This document shows, piece by piece, positions 25,004 to 59,444 of a stretch of 64,000 nucleotides of DNA (its first letter is position 1; each line of letters starts with the position of its first letter). This DNA is from an uncultured Poribacteria bacterium (GTDB taxonomy: Bacteria; Poribacteria; WGA-4E; WGA-3G). The translations under genes were made by a program, and so were the position numbers. The notes under the pieces are model-generated. The model made no database searches. It saw only the letters and a list, made by a program, of their open reading frames with translations, and was not told the origin of the DNA. The stretch is taken from the NCBI GenBank assembly GCA_951813565.1, contig OX638351.1, positions 5,184,001-5,248,000 of the forward strand. The letters are read 5' to 3'.

Positions 25004-25097
25004 TGGCGGGAGAGGGTGGGAGTCGAACCCACCTATCCACTTGCATGGACAAGCCGGTTTTGAAGACCGGTAGGGCCACCGGACCCTATCCTCCCCC
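25004..25097 (-). tRNA. selC: tRNA-Sec (anticodon UCA)
   Basis: 94 nt; 8-bp acceptor GGGGGAGG/CCTCTCCC, 6-bp D stem, loop CTTCAAA, long variable arm, GTTCGA, encoded GCCA; next to selB. Confidence 0.95.
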
Positions 25098-32985: not shown

Positions 32986-33182
32986 ACTATGTTTACGCTT
33001 CCTCTATCCGTTTATGTTGATTAGTACACGCTAATCTGAAAAGCATTATAGCACATACCTTTTTAGTTTATCAAGGGTTTCTAAATGCGGTGTAAATATT
33101 TGTAAATTTCTGAATGTCATAGCACCCACAGCGTAAACGCTGGGGCTTGTGCTTCGTAGCAGTTAGCCTTTTTTCAAAGGTC

Positions 33183-34304
33183 TCACATCTGCTCCACAAG
33201 GGGTTCTAAGCAGCCCCGAAGTATATTGATAGCAGCGTTTATATCTCTATCGTGGTGTGAACCACATTCATTGCATATCCACTGCCTATCTGCAAGAGAA
33301 AGATTATTGTTAGAATGTCCGCAGTTGCTACAAGGTTTTGTTGTAGGTGACCACTGTCCGACTTGATGGCATGCACGATTATGTTTGAAACATTTGAACT
33401 TCACAATCTGAACAAACTGATAGAAACCGAGGTCGGAGACTTTACGTCCCCAGAGTCTTTTCATTCCGTCAAGGTTGAGCGTTTCGGTGACGATAATGTC
33501 AAAGCGTCTGCAAAGGTCTGTAGCAAGTTTCCAGTGCCAATCTCTGCGTTGGTTGCTAACTTTGATATAGAGCCGTGTGAGTTGTCTGATAGCACGATAC
33601 CAGTTGTTAGACCCCTTGACTTTGCGACTAAGGGACTTATTCAGTTTGCGAAGTTGTTTCAAAGATTGTTTATGGAACTGCGGAGACTCTATTTTTTCAC
33701 CAGTGCTGATTGTCAGAAAAGTTTTCAAACCGAAGTCTACGCCCACGCTCTCACCTGTTTGTTGCATAGGTTCGGTAGAAGTATTATCGGTGATGATATA
33801 GAGCCAGTATTCACCAGCATTATCACGAAGGATTTGGATATATCGGACATCTCCGTGCCAGTTGCGGTGTTGATGGAAAGAGAACCAAACACGATTGACT
33901 TTCAAAGATTTAGAATGCATGTCCCACGATTTGAAAGAGAGACGCACACGCCCATCTTCAAGTTTGTAGCCTGTTTGGAACTTAGCAGAACGGTATCTAT
34001 GTTTTCGCTTCGGTTTCGGATGACCGCCTTGACCAGCAAAGAAACGTTGGTATGCGTCATGGATACGGATAATCGCAGCGTCAAGGGTGTCACGAGGTAT
34101 CCAAGCCCAATGTTTATGGGTGCGTTTCAGCAACTTGGTAAGATGCGGTTGCAACTTGTATCTACCAGCATATTTGCCGTAGATGCGGTAATATCGCTTT
34201 TCAAGACGCAGAAAGTGATTATGCACATCACACAAGTCATCAAGCATGTTGCCCAAACGTTTGTTCTTTGGGTGATTGCGTCCCTTATATTTATAGGTTC
34301 GCAT
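33183..34304 (-). CDS. tnpB: RNA-guided endonuclease TnpB
   Basis: RuvC GVDFG / TETL / DRDINAA; zinc finger CSNC..CNEC. Confidence 0.95.
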   Translation of the reverse strand: MRTYKYKGRNHPKNKRLGNMLDDLCDVHNHFLRLEKRYYRIYGKYAGRYKLQPHLTKLLKRTHKHWAWIPRDTLDAAIIRIHDAYQRFFAGQGGHPKPKRKHRYRSAKFQTGYKLEDGRVRLSFKSWDMHSKSLKVNRVWFSFHQHRNWHGDVRYIQILRDNAGEYWLYIITDNTSTEPMQQTGESVGVDFGLKTFLTISTGEKIESPQFHKQSLKQLRKLNKSLSRKVKGSNNWYRAIRQLTRLYIKVSNQRRDWHWKLATDLCRRFDIIVTETLNLDGMKRLWGRKVSDLGFYQFVQIVKFKCFKHNRACHQVGQWSPTTKPCSNCGHSNNNLSLADRQWICNECGSHHDRDINAAINILRGCLEPLVEQM

Positions 34305-34314
34305 TACTTTACTC

Positions 34315-34394
34315 CAGCATTACTTCCGATTCCATTCGGTTTCGGTAGAGACCACCTCATGCGAGGTGGATGGAATTCTCTACCTGTAATGCTG
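34315..34394 (-). ncRNA. Putative structured 5' leader RNA of tnpB1
   Basis: Four stems plus a pseudoknot; same architecture as 39403-39473. Confidence 0.6.
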
Positions 34395-34399
34395 AGAAT

Positions 34400-34429
34400 A
34401 GTTTAACACACTTGGCACATAATTGTCAA
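34400..34429 (-). promoter_or_regulatory. tnpB1 promoter
   Basis: TTGACA-18bp-TAAACT with TGn, immediately upstream of the leader. Confidence 0.6.
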
Positions 34430-34557
34430 GCAAAAAAAAGAACGGGCATTCCTCCCCGACCTAAAGCAACGGGGTCTCCTGCCCGAAGATTGATGAATAA
34501 CGGACTTGCGAGGATGAGGATTTCACAGGTTTTTGTTGGGTTTCGCTTCGCTCTACC

Positions 34558-34732
34558 TATAGGTGTCAACTTAAGAAAAATGCTGGATTTTCTCTTGTGG
34601 GAGGGAAACCTTGAAAGCCCGATTTTGTGAGTGTTAACCTGTTAAATCGGGGTTGAAAACCCGCCAAATGCCAAAAAGCGCATTTGGCGTTGATTCACTC
34701 CCACAAGAAGGTATCCTTAAGTTGACATTTAT
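34558..34732. mobile_element. MITE family C copy 1
   Basis: TIR ATAGGTGTCAACTTAAG; inverted homolog at 42404-42577. Confidence 0.75.
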
Positions 34733-34789
34733 GGGTTTCGCTTCGCTCTACCCAACCTACAAACGAAGATACCATTCCAATGATAACTA

Positions 34790-35896
34790 TTAATCTTTCA
34801 ACGGGTCTACAGCAATACGAATAGCGTCTTGACGGAACGCATGTGCAAAAGCATCGTCAATATCAGACAAAGGATAAATCTCTCCAATAAGTCCTGCAAA
34901 TGGATACTGCTTCCTACTTCTTTCTATAAAACTCAGAGCAGATTTCAGCACACTGGGATGATAGTTGTGAATACCCCGCAGATTTATACATTTTGTAACA
35001 AGTTGATGAACATTAAACGGAATGTTTTCAAGTGGATAGACATACCCAAGCGTCAAACATCTCCCACCGATTCCCAACCACTCAATCAAATCAGGGAGGG
35101 CAGACGGTGCCCCACTCACTTCAACAGCAAGGTCAACACCGCGTCCACGCGTCAGTTCTTTTAACTTTTCAGAAATGTCTTCGGCAGATGTACTACTTGT
35201 ATTAAATGTGTGTGTTGCACCGAACTGTTCAGCAATCTGTAAGCGGTTTGCGTTTTTATCTACAATTGCTACGATGTCGTAACCTTGCTCTTGCAGAAAA
35301 CATACAGCATAGATGCCCAACATACCAGCACCGTGTATAATCGCTGTCTCACCCGGATATGTTCCAATTGTTTCCAAACCGTTAATAACTGTTGCAAGAG
35401 CACAATTAATAGGGACCGCTTCCTCATCTTTTATCGCATCAGGAATATGATAGATTGTTGTCCCCGCTTTCAACTGAATATGTGATGCAAATCCACCAGA
35501 TAACGTATTTTCATCTGCACACTGGGCATGCCCGTATTTAAACATCGTTTCGCATTTTTGTGGTAGGTTTTTATTTAAACAATAATGACATGCACTACAA
35601 GAAGTCGTCAGACTCCAAATAATTCTGTCGCCTGCACGAAGTAATTTTCCTTCAGCAGAACGCAGACGTGTAGATGCTGCGACAGTACCGACTACCTCAT
35701 GTCCAAGTACACATGGCACTTCCGCGCTGCGTCTGCCCGATACAGTGTGAAGGTCAGAACCACAAATAGTTGCTAACGCAACCTGCACCAGAACAGTGTC
35801 TGCAGTAGCCTTCACAGGCACTTCGCAAATCCCAAATAGGGTGTCTACACCCTGAAATAATGCAATCTGGGCAGCTTCCTTTATGTTTTTAGACAT
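34790..35896 (-). CDS. Zn-dependent alcohol dehydrogenase, possibly the phosphonate-catabolism-associated type
   Basis: ICGSDLHT, LGHE, C..C..C.......C, KYGH, GAGMLG, G.HNY. Confidence 0.85.
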   Translation of the reverse strand: MSKNIKEAAQIALFQGVDTLFGICEVPVKATADTVLVQVALATICGSDLHTVSGRRSAEVPCVLGHEVVGTVAASTRLRSAEGKLLRAGDRIIWSLTTSCSACHYCLNKNLPQKCETMFKYGHAQCADENTLSGGFASHIQLKAGTTIYHIPDAIKDEEAVPINCALATVINGLETIGTYPGETAIIHGAGMLGIYAVCFLQEQGYDIVAIVDKNANRLQIAEQFGATHTFNTSSTSAEDISEKLKELTRGRGVDLAVEVSGAPSALPDLIEWLGIGGRCLTLGYVYPLENIPFNVHQLVTKCINLRGIHNYHPSVLKSALSFIERSRKQYPFAGLIGEIYPLSDIDDAFAHAFRQDAIRIAVDPLKD

Positions 35897-35951
35897 TTAT
35901 TCTCCTATCCTAAAATTTGAAAACTAATATATGAATTGTCTAACATTTTAC

Positions 35952-35980
35952 TTGCCACGTCAAGTATTATTTCGTATAAT
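35952..35980 (+). promoter_or_regulatory. Sigma70 promoter of argB
   Basis: TTGCCA-17bp-TATAAT. Confidence 0.65.
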
Positions 35981-36019
35981 TTATCAACAAGATACATTAT
36001 CAAAAGGAAATAAAATTAA

Positions 36020-36898
36020 ATGAGCCGAACTGCCGACGTTCTTATTGAAGCTTTACCTTATATCCAACGCTTTTACAACCGTAGAATTGTGATAAAATAT
36101 GGCGGTGCAGCGATGGAGGACGAATTACTCATTCACTCCGTAATGGAAGACATTGTTTTGATGAAATATGTTGGTATGCGTCCAATTGTCGTGCACGGCG
36201 GCGGTCCCAAAATCAATACTTGGATGGACAAAGTAGGAAAAGAAGCAGAATTTGTGCAGGGGTTGCGTGTAACCGATGCCGAAACCGTCGAAATTGCTGA
36301 AATGGTCTTAGCAGGAACTATCAACAAAGGCATTGTTGCACGTATCAATCAACATGGCGGTAAGGCGATCGGGCTTTGTGGTAAGGACGCGAATCTAATC
36401 GTTGCTGAAAAACATACTCCGAAAATAATGGATGAAGATGGAAACGAAACCACAGTAGATATCGGATACGTCGGCAAAATCATCGGTGTCAACACGCAGC
36501 CGATTATCACACTTGATGAGGCAGGATACATCCCTGTAATTGCGCCTAACGGAACAGGGGTTGATGGACAAACCTATAATATTAATGCGGATACAATGGC
36601 AGGTGAAATCGCTTCGGCACTTCAAGCCGAAAAACTGATTTTATTGACAGATACCCGTGGAATCTGTAAAGATGCTGAAGATATTTCTACACTTATCCCA
36701 ACTATACGTATGAAGCAAATAAACGCCCTTATTGATGACGGTGTAATTAAGGACGGGATGATACCCAAAATTGAAGCATGTGCCACGGCACTTCTCGGCG
36801 GCGTATCAAAAACACATATTATTGATGGCAAAATTCAGCATTCCCTCCTACTTGAAGTTCTCACAGAAGGCGGTATCGGGACCGAAATTATTAGGTAA
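36020..36898 (+). CDS. argB: Acetylglutamate kinase
   Basis: EALPYI, IKYGG, VHGGGP, GLRVTD, NINAD, GMIPK. Confidence 0.97.
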   Translation: MSRTADVLIEALPYIQRFYNRRIVIKYGGAAMEDELLIHSVMEDIVLMKYVGMRPIVVHGGGPKINTWMDKVGKEAEFVQGLRVTDAETVEIAEMVLAGTINKGIVARINQHGGKAIGLCGKDANLIVAEKHTPKIMDEDGNETTVDIGYVGKIIGVNTQPIITLDEAGYIPVIAPNGTGVDGQTYNINADTMAGEIASALQAEKLILLTDTRGICKDAEDISTLIPTIRMKQINALIDDGVIKDGMIPKIEACATALLGGVSKTHIIDGKIQHSLLLEVLTEGGIGTEIIR

Positions 36899-36917
36899 AC
36901 TTCAGAGAGAAAACACT

Positions 36918-38084
36918 ATGGAAAACCGAAAGAAAATCGCAGCAATCATCACTACCTATTTTCAACACTCTCATGCAGATGTAATCGCAACAAAATACAT
37001 GAAAGGCTTTCCGACAGATGAAGGGCATCGAATGCCGCGTGTTGAATTGGTATCCATCTATCTGGATCAGGTAGATTCACGAGACATAGGGGTCGGTTTA
37101 GCAAAAGAACATGGAGTGCCGATATATCCCAGCATTCGGCAAGCGTTAACGCTCGGTGGCGGTGAACTTGCAGTCGATGGTGTGCTCCTTATCGGTGAAC
37201 ACGGTGACTATCCGCATAACGAGTTTGAACAACACATGTATCCGCGCCGTTATATGTTTGAACAAATTTGCGGTGTGTTTGCCTCAAGTGGTCGATCTGT
37301 TCCTGTGTTCTGTGACAAACACCTTTCATATAATTGGGATGATGCTAATTGGATGTACGAGCGAGCTAAAGCGCTTGAAGTGCCATTCATGGCGGGTTCT
37401 TCGCTGCCGACTTGTTGGCGACAACCTTTTTTGGAACACACACTTGACATGTCTTTGGAATCGGCTATTGGGATAGGTTACGGCGGCGTAGAGTCGTACG
37501 GCTTTCACGCACTTGAGACGTTGCAATGTATGACGGAACGCCGACAAGGCGGCGAATCTGGTGTGGTTGCTATTCAATGTCTTGAAGGTGAGACTGTTTG
37601 GGAAGCAGCTGAGACAGGTCAATGGTCAATGGAGTTAGCAGATGCTGCGTGCGCCCAAATCAAAAATCGTCCGGACAAAACGATTAATGAAGGATGTCCG
37701 AACCCAACTCTGTTCCTAATAGAGCATCGGGATGGTTTTCATTCCGCAGTGCTGATGTTGAATGGCTATGTCACGGACTTCGCTTATGCGGGGAAACATG
37801 GTGATAATATCTATGCAACGGAATTTTATCTACAAAACGGCCCACCACATGCGCATTTTAGCTATTTGAGTCTTAACATTGAGGAGATGTTTGTGACAGG
37901 CACGCCGCAATATCCTGTGGAACGCACCTTGTTGACAACCGGCATTCTGGATGCCATCATGCACTCGCGCGCGCAAGGAAATATCCGACTTCAAACGCCA
38001 CATTTAGCGGAACTTGCGTATCGTTCCTACGACCATACACTTATCCGACCAACAGCACCACGCCCAGAAGGTGCTACATTATAG
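36918..38084 (+). CDS. Conserved hypothetical protein, Gfo/Idh/MocA-like oxidoreductase fold
   Basis: SHADVI, VLLIGEHGDYP, DKHL, AGSSLP, YGFHALE; start moved to the ATG at 36918. Confidence 0.65.
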   Translation: MENRKKIAAIITTYFQHSHADVIATKYMKGFPTDEGHRMPRVELVSIYLDQVDSRDIGVGLAKEHGVPIYPSIRQALTLGGGELAVDGVLLIGEHGDYPHNEFEQHMYPRRYMFEQICGVFASSGRSVPVFCDKHLSYNWDDANWMYERAKALEVPFMAGSSLPTCWRQPFLEHTLDMSLESAIGIGYGGVESYGFHALETLQCMTERRQGGESGVVAIQCLEGETVWEAAETGQWSMELADAACAQIKNRPDKTINEGCPNPTLFLIEHRDGFHSAVLMLNGYVTDFAYAGKHGDNIYATEFYLQNGPPHAHFSYLSLNIEEMFVTGTPQYPVERTLLTTGILDAIMHSRAQGNIRLQTPHLAELAYRSYDHTLIRPTAPRPEGATL

Positions 38085-38232
38085 TAGATTTTACAATTAC
38101 TTATACACTACGACAAGCGAGGTTAGGAAACCTCCAAATCAAGAAATCAACGGTATGAATCATGGCATTCACATTAAACGCATCAAACTTTTGACATACT
38201 CCCCAAGCTAAAGCATGGGGATTCTTCTATCA

Positions 38233-39390
38233 TCAGAGACTGCCTGCCGAGGCAGGTGTTACGTCTCCTCCTGAAAAGGTTGACGCCCCAACCTTATGAA
38301 TGTTTATAGCAGCGTTTATATCGCGGTCATGAGAGATTTTACAATTATGGCAATACCAATCGCGCACACTCAAATTAAAGAACATTTGGATTTGTCCGCA
38401 GGAATGGCAAACTTTACTTGTGGGTGTCCATCTGTCAATCTGCTTGACATGCTTGCATCGTTTTTGTGCTTGCCATTCGAATTTCTGCATGAAGTCTGCA
38501 AAGCCGTAGTCAGAGACTTTTCGTCCCCAGAGGCGTTTCATGCCGTCAAGGTTCAAGTCTTCAAAGAAACAGACATCAAACTTTCTGACAAGTTCAAGCG
38601 CGAGTTTCCAATGATGGTCTTCACGTTGCCGATTGATTTTCCTGTGTACCCGTGCAAGGTCTTTCCTCGCACACTCGCGATTGTTGCTGCCTTTCTGCTT
38701 CCGAGACAACGCACGGCTCGCACGTTTTATCAGTTTAGCAGCAGATTTATAGCATTCAGGAGATTGATATTTCGTGCCATCGGAACAGGTGAGGAAGTGC
38801 TTGAGTCCAAAGTCAAACCCTGCTGTCCTACCAGTCTTAGGTGCAGGCTCAAGTCCCTCAGTGTCTGTTGTGATAGTGATATACCAATCCCCTACAAAGT
38901 CTTTCTTAACGGTAACCTGTTTGATGTTGCCTTCAATAGGTCGGCTATACCAGAATCGGTACCAGCGTCTATTGATACGGATTTTCGCAACGGGGCAGCC
39001 ATCTATTTTGTCAATAGTTTCTATCTTAACTTGGCTACCATCAAAAGTCATAGATTTGTATTTATACCGACTTCTAAATTTAGGCGGACGCTTGGCTCTA
39101 CCTTCAAAGAAGTTTTGCCAACCTCTGTCAACACGTTGGATACATTCCTGCAAACACCAAGAATACGGAACAGTCCAGTGTTGATATTTAGCAAGTCGTT
39201 TCAGTTTCGTCAGATGTTTAATCATTCTGTAGCAGCTTGGACGCTTATAGTCTTCGCAATGTCCGTAGATGCGATAGTGACGCTGCCACAACGCAATAAA
39301 ATGGTTGTGGACATGCGCAATGATACGCAGGTCTTTTTGCAGATGACGATTGCGTTTATGTTTTTGTCCCTTGTATTTGTAGGTTCGCAT
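38233..39390 (-). CDS. tnpB: RNA-guided endonuclease TnpB
   Basis: GFDFG / FEDL / DRDINAA; CHSC..CHNC. Confidence 0.95.
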   Translation of the reverse strand: MRTYKYKGQKHKRNRHLQKDLRIIAHVHNHFIALWQRHYRIYGHCEDYKRPSCYRMIKHLTKLKRLAKYQHWTVPYSWCLQECIQRVDRGWQNFFEGRAKRPPKFRSRYKYKSMTFDGSQVKIETIDKIDGCPVAKIRINRRWYRFWYSRPIEGNIKQVTVKKDFVGDWYITITTDTEGLEPAPKTGRTAGFDFGLKHFLTCSDGTKYQSPECYKSAAKLIKRASRALSRKQKGSNNRECARKDLARVHRKINRQREDHHWKLALELVRKFDVCFFEDLNLDGMKRLWGRKVSDYGFADFMQKFEWQAQKRCKHVKQIDRWTPTSKVCHSCGQIQMFFNLSVRDWYCHNCKISHDRDINAAINIHKVGASTFSGGDVTPASAGSL

Positions 39391-39402
39391 TACATATCCT
39401 TC

Positions 39403-39473
39403 GCATTACAATACCACTTTCAAATGGTGCGGTGGCACTCTCAAGCGAGAGGTGAAATCCACCGCTGTAATAC
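39403..39473 (-). ncRNA. Putative structured 5' leader RNA of tnpB2
   Basis: Covarying counterpart of 34315-34394; G-U wobbles favour the minus strand. Confidence 0.6.
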
Positions 39474-39480
39474 TGGAGAT

Positions 39481-39509
39481 AGTATAACACAAACGCAAGG
39501 AAAAATCAA
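39481..39509 (-). promoter_or_regulatory. tnpB2 promoter
   Basis: TTGATT-17bp-TATACT with TGn. Confidence 0.6.
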
Positions 39510-39619
39510 CAAAAAAATGGAGACGTTAGCGGTGTCTACATCCCCGAGCTAAAGCAACGGGGTTTTGACACCGAAGATTGATAAAGAACTTGTAAAGATA
39601 ATTTTAGATTTCACTATAA

Positions 39620-58088: not shown

Positions 58089-59444
58089 GTGATACCACCC
58101 ACTACCTAAAGGTAGGGGCTTCGGTTTCATCGCGATTGCGCTGTTTCCGAAGAAATCAGCGTCTTACTTTCGCTCCACCAGCAGGCTCTTATGCCGTATC
58201 AGAACGGTTTTATCGTGCATTATCACACGGGTACCCCAGCCTGCAATATATTGATAGCAGCGTTGATGTCTCTATCGTGATGCGTCTGACATTGTTGGCA
58301 CGTCCAGTGCCTATCGGTGAGTTGTAAATCGTTGTTGCTGTGTCCGCAATGATGACACGGTTTGGTTGTGGGTTGCCATTTATCTGTTTTGGCAAGCACT
58401 TTCCCATATTTGTGGCAAGTCCATTCAAGAATGAGTGCAAACTCACCGAAGGCAATATCGGAGACTTTACGACCCCACAATCGTTTCATCGCATCAAGAT
58501 GAAGCGTTTCAATCGCAATGTAATCATATTTGTGAACGAGACGCAATGCTACCTTGAAAAACCAGTCTCTTCGTTGATTCGCTATCTTCTTATACGCGCG
58601 AGAAAGGTGGCGTTTCGCTTTATACCATCCATTAGATAAGTATGTCTTGCGAGATAACCCTTTGTGCGCACAACGGATAGCCCTGAGACTGTTCTTATAG
58701 AACTCGGGAGACTTTATCTGCGTGCCATCTGACAATGTGAGAAATGTTTTGAGACCAAAATCTATCCCTGCTCTATGACCTGTCTTGGGAAGATGTGCTA
58801 TCGGTTCAGATGCATTACAAGTCAGTATAAGATAATAATCCCCGACATTATCACGCTTGATCGTGACGGTTTTGATTTGACACGTCCAATCGCAATGTTT
58901 CCAAAAAGTAAACCACTTTTTTAGACAACTGATATAGATACGATTACCTTCAATCTTATAGCCCGCTTGTGTGAATGTCATGGAGTTATATTTATGTTGT
59001 GGTTTGATATGCGGTTTACCGATCCTTTTGGTCGTTTTACCGGATCGACGGTCTTCTATGTTTTGAAAAAACCTTTGGTAGCCTTTATCAATACGAAACA
59101 CAACATCTTGAATAACTTGGCTCGGTAGTTGGTTCCAATGTGGTTTTGTCCGTTTCTTCAACTTCGCAATATGCTTGTTCATTGTATACACAGGTATGTA
59201 TTTGCCAAATAGACGATAATAACGCCTTTGCAACTTCAGAACATGCACATGCACCTGATGTAGATCATCAAGCAGGTTGCCAAGTCGGATTAGATTAGAT
59301 TGGTGAGATAACTCGTATTTATACGCTTTCATTGGTCGGTAAGTATATCATATCTATGAGGATAGACAAGGTTTTTTGTGTAAATAGTGGTCTGAGCCCG
59401 TCTACATCCCACAAGCTGAAGCATGGGGATTTGACGGGAAGGTG
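58089..59444 (-). mobile_element. IS200/IS605-family TnpB-only element 3
   Basis: LE after TTAA with hairpin CCCCATGCTTCAGCTTGTGGG; RE GAAGCCCCTACCTTTAGGTAGTGGGTGGTATCAC. Confidence 0.85.
58223..59332 (-). CDS. tnpB: RNA-guided endonuclease TnpB
   Basis: GIDFG / IETL / DRDINAA; CHHC..CQQC. Confidence 0.95.
   Translation of the reverse strand: MKAYKYELSHQSNLIRLGNLLDDLHQVHVHVLKLQRRYYRLFGKYIPVYTMNKHIAKLKKRTKPHWNQLPSQVIQDVVFRIDKGYQRFFQNIEDRRSGKTTKRIGKPHIKPQHKYNSMTFTQAGYKIEGNRIYISCLKKWFTFWKHCDWTCQIKTVTIKRDNVGDYYLILTCNASEPIAHLPKTGHRAGIDFGLKTFLTLSDGTQIKSPEFYKNSLRAIRCAHKGLSRKTYLSNGWYKAKRHLSRAYKKIANQRRDWFFKVALRLVHKYDYIAIETLHLDAMKRLWGRKVSDIAFGEFALILEWTCHKYGKVLAKTDKWQPTTKPCHHCGHSNNDLQLTDRHWTCQQCQTHHDRDINAAINILQAGVPV

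What the first reader, a model, noticed from the sequence alone, without database searches (positions are those of the whole stretch)
34302..39473. Covarying pseudoknotted 5' leader RNA in front of two divergent tnpB genes
Seen directly on the minus strand, between promoter and start codon. tnpB1 (34315-34394): P1 CAGCATTAC/GTAATGCTG, P2 GGTAGAGA/TCTCTACC, P3 CCACCTC/GAGGTGG, P4 CCGA/TCGG, with bulge TTCCAT complementary to P4 loop ATGGAA. tnpB2 (39403-39473): P1 GTATTACA/TGTAATGC, P2 GCGGTGG/CCACCGC, P3 CTCTC/GAGAG, P4 ACCAT/GTGGT, with bulge TTTCA complementary to loop TGAAA. The topology is the same while the stem sequences largely differ. Established: the TnpB omegaRNA lies at the 3'/right end. 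I do not know of a described 5' structured RNA like this. Inference: a cis-regulator of a toxic nuclease, such as an autoregulatory TnpB-binding site or a riboswitch-like element. tnpB3 lacks it.
Basis: partly seen in the sequence, partly recalled or inferred. Interest (0 to 1): 0.82.

Follow-up and report, generated by a model that had tools for sequence, protein, structure and literature searches.

The report
Two-register leader RNA before tnpB
Two transposon nuclease genes in this bacterium begin with a real, knotted RNA fold that matched no catalogued RNA family; its first few bases can pair in either of two places, one of which covers the translation start, so it most likely rations how much nuclease is made.

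Summary
Observation confirmed. Both leaders fold far beyond chance (z -6.9, -4.5), match no Rfam family, and are the two top hits in the window of a covariance model built without them. They belong to a large family in Poribacteria (two main forms, in 47 and 87 of 151 genomes): a three-way junction with a 5-7 bp kissing helix, starting at the predicted +1. Best reading: a register slip that gates translation. TnpB-specific autoregulation is disfavoured: leader forms swap across TnpB clades and precede phage GIY-YIG endonucleases. Against translation-only: protein-free mini-elements keep the fold and mostly both registers. No expression data; trigger unknown. This scan reported the same family before on other Poribacteria DNA; I found no paper describing it.

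The parts
33116..34492 (-). IS1341-type (tnpB-only) IS200/IS605 element 1, 4 copies in the genome; target motif TCAT 5' of the left end
   Evidence: ends from comparison of copies
34443..34485 (-). left-end hairpin of element 1
   Evidence: sequence, shared by all 4 copies
34400..34429 (-). sigma-70-like promoter (-35 at 34429-34424, extended -10 at 34405-34400); predicted +1 at 34393
   Evidence: same spacing conserved over 175 family members; not mapped experimentally
34301..34393 (-). leader RNA 1, whole module
   Evidence: R3 hit E 2.8e-10
34386..34393 (-). leader 1: 5' strand of P1 (+1 to +8), the switching strand
34344..34384 (-). leader 1: P2 (34384-34377/34351-34344), 7-nt bulge (34376-34370), P3 (34369-34363/34358-34352)
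34326..34339 (-). leader 1: P4 hairpin; 34335-34329 is complementary to the bulge (7-bp kissing helix)
   Evidence: family covariation
34316..34323 (-). leader 1: proximal partner of the 5' strand (closes the junction)
34312..34315 (-). Shine-Dalgarno-like GGAG between the two partners
   Evidence: sequence
34301..34307 (-). leader 1: distal partner of the 5' strand, contains the tnpB1 AUG (34304-34302)
33183..34304 (-). tnpB1, 373 aa, three RuvC motifs present
   Evidence: Pfam PF01385 + PF07282; motifs
33116..33183 (-). right end with hairpin (33153-33121), expected 3' part of the omega-RNA scaffold
   Evidence: conserved among copies; omega-RNA role from established knowledge
38191..39580 (-). 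IS1341-type element 2, 5 copies in the genome; target motif TTAT
39530..39573 (-). left-end hairpin of element 2
39481..39509 (-). sigma-70-like promoter; predicted +1 at 39474
39387..39474 (-). leader RNA 2: 5' strand 39474-39466; P2 39465-39459/39435-39429; bulge 39457-39453; P3 39451-39447/39442-39438; P4 39428-39424/39417-39413 with loop 39422-39418 kissing the bulge (5 bp)
   Evidence: R3 hit E 3.9e-5
39403..39410 (-). leader 2: proximal partner of the 5' strand
39387..39394 (-). leader 2: distal partner, contains the tnpB2 AUG (39390-39388); SD-like AAGGA at 39401-39397 lies between the partners
38233..39390 (-). tnpB2, 385 aa, three RuvC motifs present
58223..59332 (-). tnpB3, comparison: -10 box only about 9 nt before the AUG, no leader

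Best explanation
A portable promoter-plus-leader cassette that Poribacteria selfish elements put at the very 5' end of their transcripts. Shown by sequence comparison: a three-way junction with a kissing helix; the first 7-9 transcribed bases can pair with a proximal or a distal partner, and the distal one always lies on the translation initiation region (about -12 to -4) or on the start codon. Inferred: the proximal helix forms first during transcription and leaves the start free; branch migration to the distal partner then closes it. As the two states are close in energy, each mRNA gets limited or short-lived ribosome access, which rations a genome-cutting nuclease, while the 5' end stays paired in both states. 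The kissing scaffold holds the 5' strand next to both partners. What shifts the balance (time alone, the 30S subunit, a host protein or ligand) is not shown.
For: Distal helix: form B 88.5% of cells paired, 51 double-change cells vs 14 in shuffles; form A 98%; neither this helix nor the kissing helix was in the models used to align. Own 5' strand beats other cores on own distal window in 88 of 91 leaders, 34 distinct cores. Pattern-drawn form-A set: both registers 6/6 in 88 of 108; G-U-tolerated transitions 62 vs 7 pair-breaking ones. Partner spacing differs by form (7, 8, 16, 17, 19 nt) but the distal partner ends a median 5 nt before the AUG or covers it. ddG(distal-proximal) medians +1.5 (113 of 131 form A), -0.4 (35 of 44 form B), +1.1 for both window leaders. 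-35/-10 consensus with a purine at +1 at the start of P1. 110 of 123 pattern matches precede tnpB; others include GIY-YIG endonucleases. tnpB behind tnpA lacks it. Precedents: PMC4615214 (passages), PMC4513863 (abstract), PMC2988022 (passages).
Against: Protein-free mini-elements keep the fold (kissing helix of 6-7 bp in 14 of 14) and both registers in 10 of 14 without a conserved ORF, and an orphan copy in this genome has both registers and only a 3-codon ORF. Form A has no SD (0 of 37, vs 62% of 2756 genomic ORFs), so what is occluded there is less clear. In form A the proximal (open) state is predicted lower in energy in 95 of 113, which does not fit a simple timer. Energies omit the pseudoknot and stacking. 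Some intact tnpB genes have a single partner (L058, L191, G000:2447511). Sequences are related, so counts overstate independent events. No transcript or translation data.
Confidence: 0.5

Rival explanations
1. Mainly a 5'-end protector or processivity element: it keeps the first nucleotides paired (or helps RNA polymerase through) so that poorly translated or untranslated transcripts survive to yield the omega-RNA at their 3' end; the distal partner is a backup pairing site.
For: P1 starts at the predicted +1 in all forms; kept with 7 compensated kissing codes in protein-free left end-leader-omegaRNA-right end mini-elements in 13 of 111 genomes listed; form A mRNAs lack an SD. omega-RNA is cut from the tnpB mRNA (PMC10278001, abstract and passages).
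Against: Does not explain why the second partner is anchored to the start codon across forms with different spacing; homing endonuclease genes carry it but have no omega-RNA; even the mini-elements keep a GTG at the distal partner in 13 of 14.
Confidence: 0.22
2. A true riboswitch or host-protein switch: a ligand binds the junction, stabilises the proximal helix and turns translation on under some host condition.
For: Within each form P1, P2, P4 and linkers are conserved in sequence while P3 and the kissing helix vary freely, as in aptamers; the two states are balanced.
Against: No junction nucleotide pattern is common to all forms; downstream genes are nucleases with no metabolic theme; no Rfam similarity at E up to 10.
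Confidence: 0.12
3. Autoregulation by TnpB: apo-TnpB or the RNP binds its own leader and locks the closed state.
For: Overwhelming association with tnpB (110 of 123); TnpB acts on its own mRNA (PMC10278001, abstract).
Against: Leader forms are interspersed on the TnpB tree (form A needs at least 9 changes on strongly supported branches; quick tree); same leader before GIY-YIG nucleases and moeA; no match of the kissing code elsewhere in the element (18 vs 19 in swapped controls).
Confidence: 0.06
4. The kissing helix forms between molecules (as in phi29 pRNA; recalled), so leaders sharing a code oligomerise and sense element copy number, driving the slip to the closed register.
For: 40 different kissing codes among 108 form-A leaders, 98 with 7 of 7 Watson-Crick pairs; many copies per genome. 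Covariation cannot tell cis from trans.
Against: The kissing pairs vary about as much as the purely structural P3, so no diversifying selection is needed; single-copy and phage instances keep it.
Confidence: 0.06
5. A self-cleaving or otherwise catalytic RNA on a hammerhead-like scaffold.
For: Order of helices (closing stem, long arm with bulge or loop, short hairpin kissing it) resembles a type III hammerhead with a loop-loop contact (recalled); ribozymes often accompany mobile elements (recalled).
Against: The two arms are joined by 1-4 nt with no CUGANGA core and no invariant catalytic residues across forms; no ribozyme family hit.
Confidence: 0.04

Closest known systems
5' UTR of the Levivirus (MS2) maturation gene (PMC4615214, passages read)
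   Same: An upstream strand near the 5' end pairs over the ribosome-binding site across a multi-arm junction; an alternative pairing of that strand leaves a window for translation.
   Different: There a metastable hairpin competes with one long-distance helix; here one strand has two near-identical partners in tandem, the arms kiss, and the host is a DNA transposon transcript. No sequence relation.
IS200 tnpA 5' UTR structure and art200 (PMC4513863, abstract read)
   Same: RNA structure in the leader represses translation of an IS200/IS605-family gene.
   Different: Acts on tnpA, one stem-loop plus an antisense RNA and Hfq; no pseudoknot or dual register. Here tnpB-only elements; no antisense partner for the kissing code found.
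RBS-sequestering hairpins of T-even homing endonucleases (I-TevI-III, segB, mobE; PMC2988022, passages read)
   Same: 5' RNA structure limits translation of a selfish DNA nuclease; this family also precedes phage GIY-YIG genes.
   Different: Simple hairpins relieved by a late internal promoter; here a pseudoknotted junction that begins at its own promoter's +1.
Purine-type riboswitches (three-way junction, loop-loop contact, P1 strand exchange; recalled)
   Same: Topology and a P1-based expression platform.
   Different: No conserved ligand pocket seen across forms; kissing is 5-7 freely covarying Watson-Crick pairs; no Rfam match.
TnpB omega-RNA and PATE-like mini-elements (PMC10055086, PMC10278001, passages read); Arc repressor of IS605 promoters (10.64898/2026.09.24.754181, abstract and term search)
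   Same: Same elements; omega-RNA-only mini-elements are known; control of tnpB expression is known at the level of transcription and of mRNA-omegaRNA pairing.
   Different: omega-RNA lies at the 3' end; none of the passages seen describes a structured 5' leader of tnpB or of such mini-elements.

Membership tests
Any Rfam 15 family (incl. IS605-orfB motifs, riboswitches, ribozymes) | covariance-model match at gathering score | tested here: not met
   only tRNA-Sec in the window; nothing on the leaders at E up to 10; mini-element only chance hits
IS1341-type IS200/IS605 element | tnpB with OrfB_IS605 and zinc-ribbon domains and RuvC motifs, no tnpA | tested here: met
IS1341-type IS200/IS605 element | subterminal hairpins, fixed 5' target motif, dispersed copies with different flanks | tested here: met
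   4 and 5 copies with shared ends
TnpB omega-RNA | located at the 3' end of tnpB, running into the right end and guide | tested here: not met
   the motif is at the 5' end; the right-end region is separate
Hammerhead ribozyme | CUGANGA and GAAA core around the three-way junction (recalled) | tested here: not met
   1-4 nt linker between the arms, no such core; no Rfam hit
Self-cleaving ribozyme (any) | site-specific self-cleavage | not testable with these tools
   needs in vitro assay
Riboswitch | mutually exclusive expression-platform helix over RBS or terminator | tested here: met
   covarying distal helix, balanced energies
Riboswitch | highly conserved ligand-binding nucleotides across the class | tested here: inconclusive
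   conserved within forms, not across forms
Riboswitch | ligand-dependent structural change | not testable with these tools
   needs in-line probing
MS2-type delayed-folding translational control | closed state is the thermodynamic end state, open state a kinetic trap | tested here: inconclusive
   closed state lower in 21 of 35 form B but 18 of 113 form A and 0 of 2 window leaders; pseudoknot not modelled
Protein-autoregulated leader (r-protein-leader type) | leader co-inherited with the protein it binds | tested here: not met
   forms swapped across TnpB clades; non-TnpB genes downstream

The most novel reading that the evidence does not exclude
A new class of portable RNA control module shared by unrelated selfish nucleases (TnpB, GIY-YIG) and by protein-free guide-RNA elements: a kissing three-way junction acts as a scaffold on which the transcript's first seven bases ratchet between two registers, coupling 5'-end protection to a gate on ribosome loading, with the switch thrown by a host signal or by code-specific pairing between transcripts that counts element copies.
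Probability: 0.2. Interest if true: 0.9.

Novelty: new variant of a known kind. Interest (0 to 1): 0.7.

Why it matters
How TnpB, the ancestor of Cas12, is kept from damaging its host is an open question; known controls are a transcriptional repressor and an mRNA-omegaRNA pairing. This is a directly testable post-transcriptional control with well over a thousand natural variants, and three-way covariation (one strand, two partners) is rare, direct comparative evidence of a natural bistable RNA. The orthogonal kissing codes and short length also make it a candidate part for synthetic translational switches. Limits: found only in one phylum and two viral contigs so far, no experimental data, and this scan has already reported the family from other genomes.

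Tried and rejected
Rfam at gathering and E-value thresholds: nothing. Metagenome and viral searches with the TnpB proteins: 2 near-identical partial loci and 0 loci. RNA evidence: only assembled contigs of poly(A)-selected libraries with scattered cover, which cannot show transcription, strand or start. Model R2 (one sub-family) missed both window leaders; the broader R3 found them, though in whole-genome mode with filters it missed the tnpB2 family and found only 1 of 6 mini-element loci given, so absence by these models is weak. First energy calculation used a start 3 nt too far upstream and overstated the proximal state in form A; redone with the promoter-derived +1. Idea that read-through transcripts favour the closed state: extra upstream bases extend the distal helix in form B but the proximal one in form A, so not general. 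Antisense or omega-RNA partner of the kissing code: none above swapped controls. Diversifying selection on the code: not needed. Eight nearest tnpB genes outside Poribacteria taken from plasmid and phage collections: no leader (descriptor scores none or 38-53, within the shuffle range; no R3 hit); this is a small sample. A wider search of other phyla with the RNA models was not done. The careful TnpB tree did not finish; the quick tree is used. The supplement of Weinberg et al. 2017 (PMC5737381) could not be read; its motifs that are in Rfam were covered, others might bear on novelty.
Full report
Observation. The two leaders fold with z-scores of -6.9 and -4.5 (0 of 200 shuffles as stable), and a descriptor of the whole topology (closing helix P1, arm P2 with bulge and P3, hairpin P4, kissing helix) was matched by 0 of 500 shuffles of either. 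Rfam gives nothing on them at gathering score or at E up to 10. Both genes are TnpB (Pfam) with RuvC motifs, in tnpB-only IS200/IS605 elements with 4 and 5 dispersed copies and clear ends. tnpB3 has its -10 box about 9 nt before the AUG and no leader.

The family. The genome has 47 tnpB loci; 17 carry such a leader. The largest family, whose tnpB follows tnpA or its remnant, has none. Two main forms appeared: form A, with a 7-nt bulge and P3 as in the window, and form B, where the loop of a plain P2 hairpin kisses the P4 loop. Covariance models gave matches in 47 of 151 (form B) and 87 of 151 (form A; over 1100 matches, capped per genome) genomes of the phylum, nearly all in one family. A model built from 48 matches that exclude the two window leaders (it includes three relatives of leader 1, none of leader 2) ranks them first and second in the 64-kb window (E 2.8e-10 and 3.9e-5; next 0.18), so both belong to the family.

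Covariation. Form B, 44 sequences: 95.5% of cells paired, 23 of 27 pairs with double changes, including 7 of 7 kissing pairs. Form A, 37 sequences: 98.6% paired, 18 of 33 pairs, 5 of 7 kissing pairs. The alignments were fitted to the nested helices, but the kissing helix was not part of either model. In a pattern-drawn set of 108 non-redundant form-A leaders the kissing helix has 7 of 7 Watson-Crick pairs in 98, with 40 different codes; mismatched pairs of leaders reach 7 of 7 in 0.1%. Related sequences inflate such counts, but slid controls fall to 35-55% paired. G-U-tolerant changes on this strand point to RNA rather than single-stranded DNA.

Position. Aligning 131 form-A and 44 form-B leaders on P1 gives a TTGACA-like box at -35 and an extended TATAAT-like box at -12 to -7, with A at the predicted +1 in 91% and 95%. 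The 5' strand of P1 is thus the first 7-9 nt of the transcript. This is a prediction; public RNA runs gave no usable evidence.

The 3' strand of P1 occurs twice. In the window the second copy contains the AUG of tnpB1 and of tnpB2, with the SD-like sequence between the copies. Across the family both copies change with the 5' strand: the distal helix is 88.5% paired in form B with 51 double-change cells (14 in shuffles) and 98% in form A; each leader's own 5' strand fits its distal window better than other cores in 88 of 91 cases over 34 cores; both registers are perfect over 6 bp in 88 of 108 pattern-drawn leaders, the distal one in 100, and departures are mostly G-U-tolerated (62 vs 7 pair-breaking transitions; 40 of the 62 are one type in the proximal copy). 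The period is 7, 8, 16, 17 or 19 nt by form, yet the distal copy ends a median 5 nt before the AUG or covers it. With the promoter-derived start the two states differ by a median +1.5 kcal/mol (form A, 113 of 131; 18 left out for a register under 5 bp), -0.4 (form B, 35 of 44) and +1.1 (both window leaders), pseudoknot not modelled.

What it precedes. 110 of 123 pattern matches have tnpB directly downstream; 6 end at a contig edge; the rest include moeA, unknown small proteins and a GIY-YIG/NUMOD3 homing endonuclease. Two viral contigs carry 3 and 2 copies, before a TnpB, an unknown protein, no clear ORF, and two GIY-YIG genes. On a quick tree of 61 TnpBs (thinned from 120) the forms are interspersed: form A needs 12 changes, at least 9 on strongly supported branches; one form spans TnpBs 25-26% identical, and TnpBs 83% identical carry different forms. 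The promoter-leader cassette is therefore exchanged between nuclease genes, which argues against recognition by a cognate TnpB. Eight tnpB genes from other phyla show no leader.

Evidence against a purely translational role. A promoter-anchored descriptor scan of the genome (10854 sites, 26 hits at score 60 or more: 15 known tnpB leaders, 1 new true copy, 10 that I judged chance or other repeats) found a copy in a 450-bp element made of left end, promoter, leader, a second structured domain, an omega-RNA like that of the tnpB3 family and right end. Full-length relatives at 70-82% identity are listed in 13 of 111 genomes (only 5 candidates scored per genome). In 14 loci the kissing helix is kept in all with 7 codes, both registers in 10, and there is no conserved ORF, though 13 keep a GTG at the distal partner followed by 10-79 codons in differing frames. 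Another copy in this genome has both registers, its own P1 core and only a 3-codon ORF. Form A also lacks an SD (0 of 37; 62% of genomic ORFs have one). These facts keep alive a role in protecting or completing the transcript from which the omega-RNA is cut.

Mechanism. Most likely (0.5): the proximal helix forms first and leaves the start open; slip to the distal partner closes it; the balance rations nuclease synthesis while the 5' end stays paired. Shown: fold, two registers, their position, modular spread. Inferred: order of folding, effect on ribosomes, purpose. Rivals: 5'-end protector or processivity element (0.22), ligand or host-protein switch (0.12), TnpB autoregulation (0.06), intermolecular kissing as a copy counter (0.06), ribozyme (0.04).

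Comparison with what is known. It works like the MS2 maturation-gene leader (PMC4615214, passages), the IS200 tnpA 5' UTR (PMC4513863, abstract) and the T-even homing endonuclease hairpins (PMC2988022, passages), but shares neither structure nor sequence with them and fails membership of every Rfam family. Literature searches (listings only) returned no paper describing a structured 5' leader of tnpB or this motif; term searches in PMC10691335, PMC5737381, PMC10055086, PMC10278001 and two 2026 preprints found none either. The library lacks most subscription papers and the supplement of PMC5737381 could not be read. Earlier notes of this scan describe the same family in other Poribacteria genomes; they are unchecked AI notes, and I tested their main claims here. 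The mini-element had no look-alike among those notes by sequence.

Verdict. Real, uncatalogued, strongly supported as a structure and as a two-state RNA; function inferred. New variant of a known kind (structured leader limiting a selfish gene), interest 0.7.

Noticed in passing
G000:C1:963510-963960 (L282 2011-2460, minus): Protein-free IS200/IS605 mini-element: left end, promoter, the leader, a second conserved structured domain of about 60-110 nt (4 of 18 predicted pairs with double changes; no Rfam hit), omega-RNA like the tnpB3 family, right end. Family in at least 13 genomes.
   Followed up: partly
G000:C1:5088712-5088805 (L303, minus): Orphan leader with promoter and both registers but no left end and no downstream gene.
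   Followed up: partly
G000:C1:2447430-2447520 (L038): tnpB2-family copy that lost one repeat unit, leaving the AUG inside the only P1 helix and no SD: predicted locked off. L058, L191, L285 and L286 also have a single partner.
   Followed up: partly
L022 1420-1476; L068 1676-1735: tnpB1-like elements whose leader has lost the P2/P3 arm but keeps both P1 partners.
   Followed up: no
L123 2377-2497: Leader with about 28 extra nt (a hairpin) inserted in the P3 loop, in front of an unknown membrane-protein-like ORF; P3 seems to tolerate insertions.
   Followed up: no
L179 1490-1610: Leader behind a decayed left end now sits in front of moeA, a possible capture of the cassette by a host gene.
   Followed up: partly
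L260-L273 (viral contigs G153, G154): Probable Poribacteria phages carry both leader forms before TnpB, GIY-YIG/NUMOD3 endonucleases and an unknown 123-aa protein.
   Followed up: partly
window 25008-25097 (minus): Selenocysteine tRNA gene (Rfam RF01852).
   Followed up: no
window 34500-34760: Cluster of short hairpin repeats between the alcohol dehydrogenase gene and element 1, at very high contig depth in a DNA run.
   Followed up: no
G000:C1 near 228811, 2159170, 3744599, 4319214: Complete IS605 copies with a Y1 tnpA, the likely transposase source for the tnpB-only elements; many related copies keep only the 3' tip of tnpA.
   Followed up: partly
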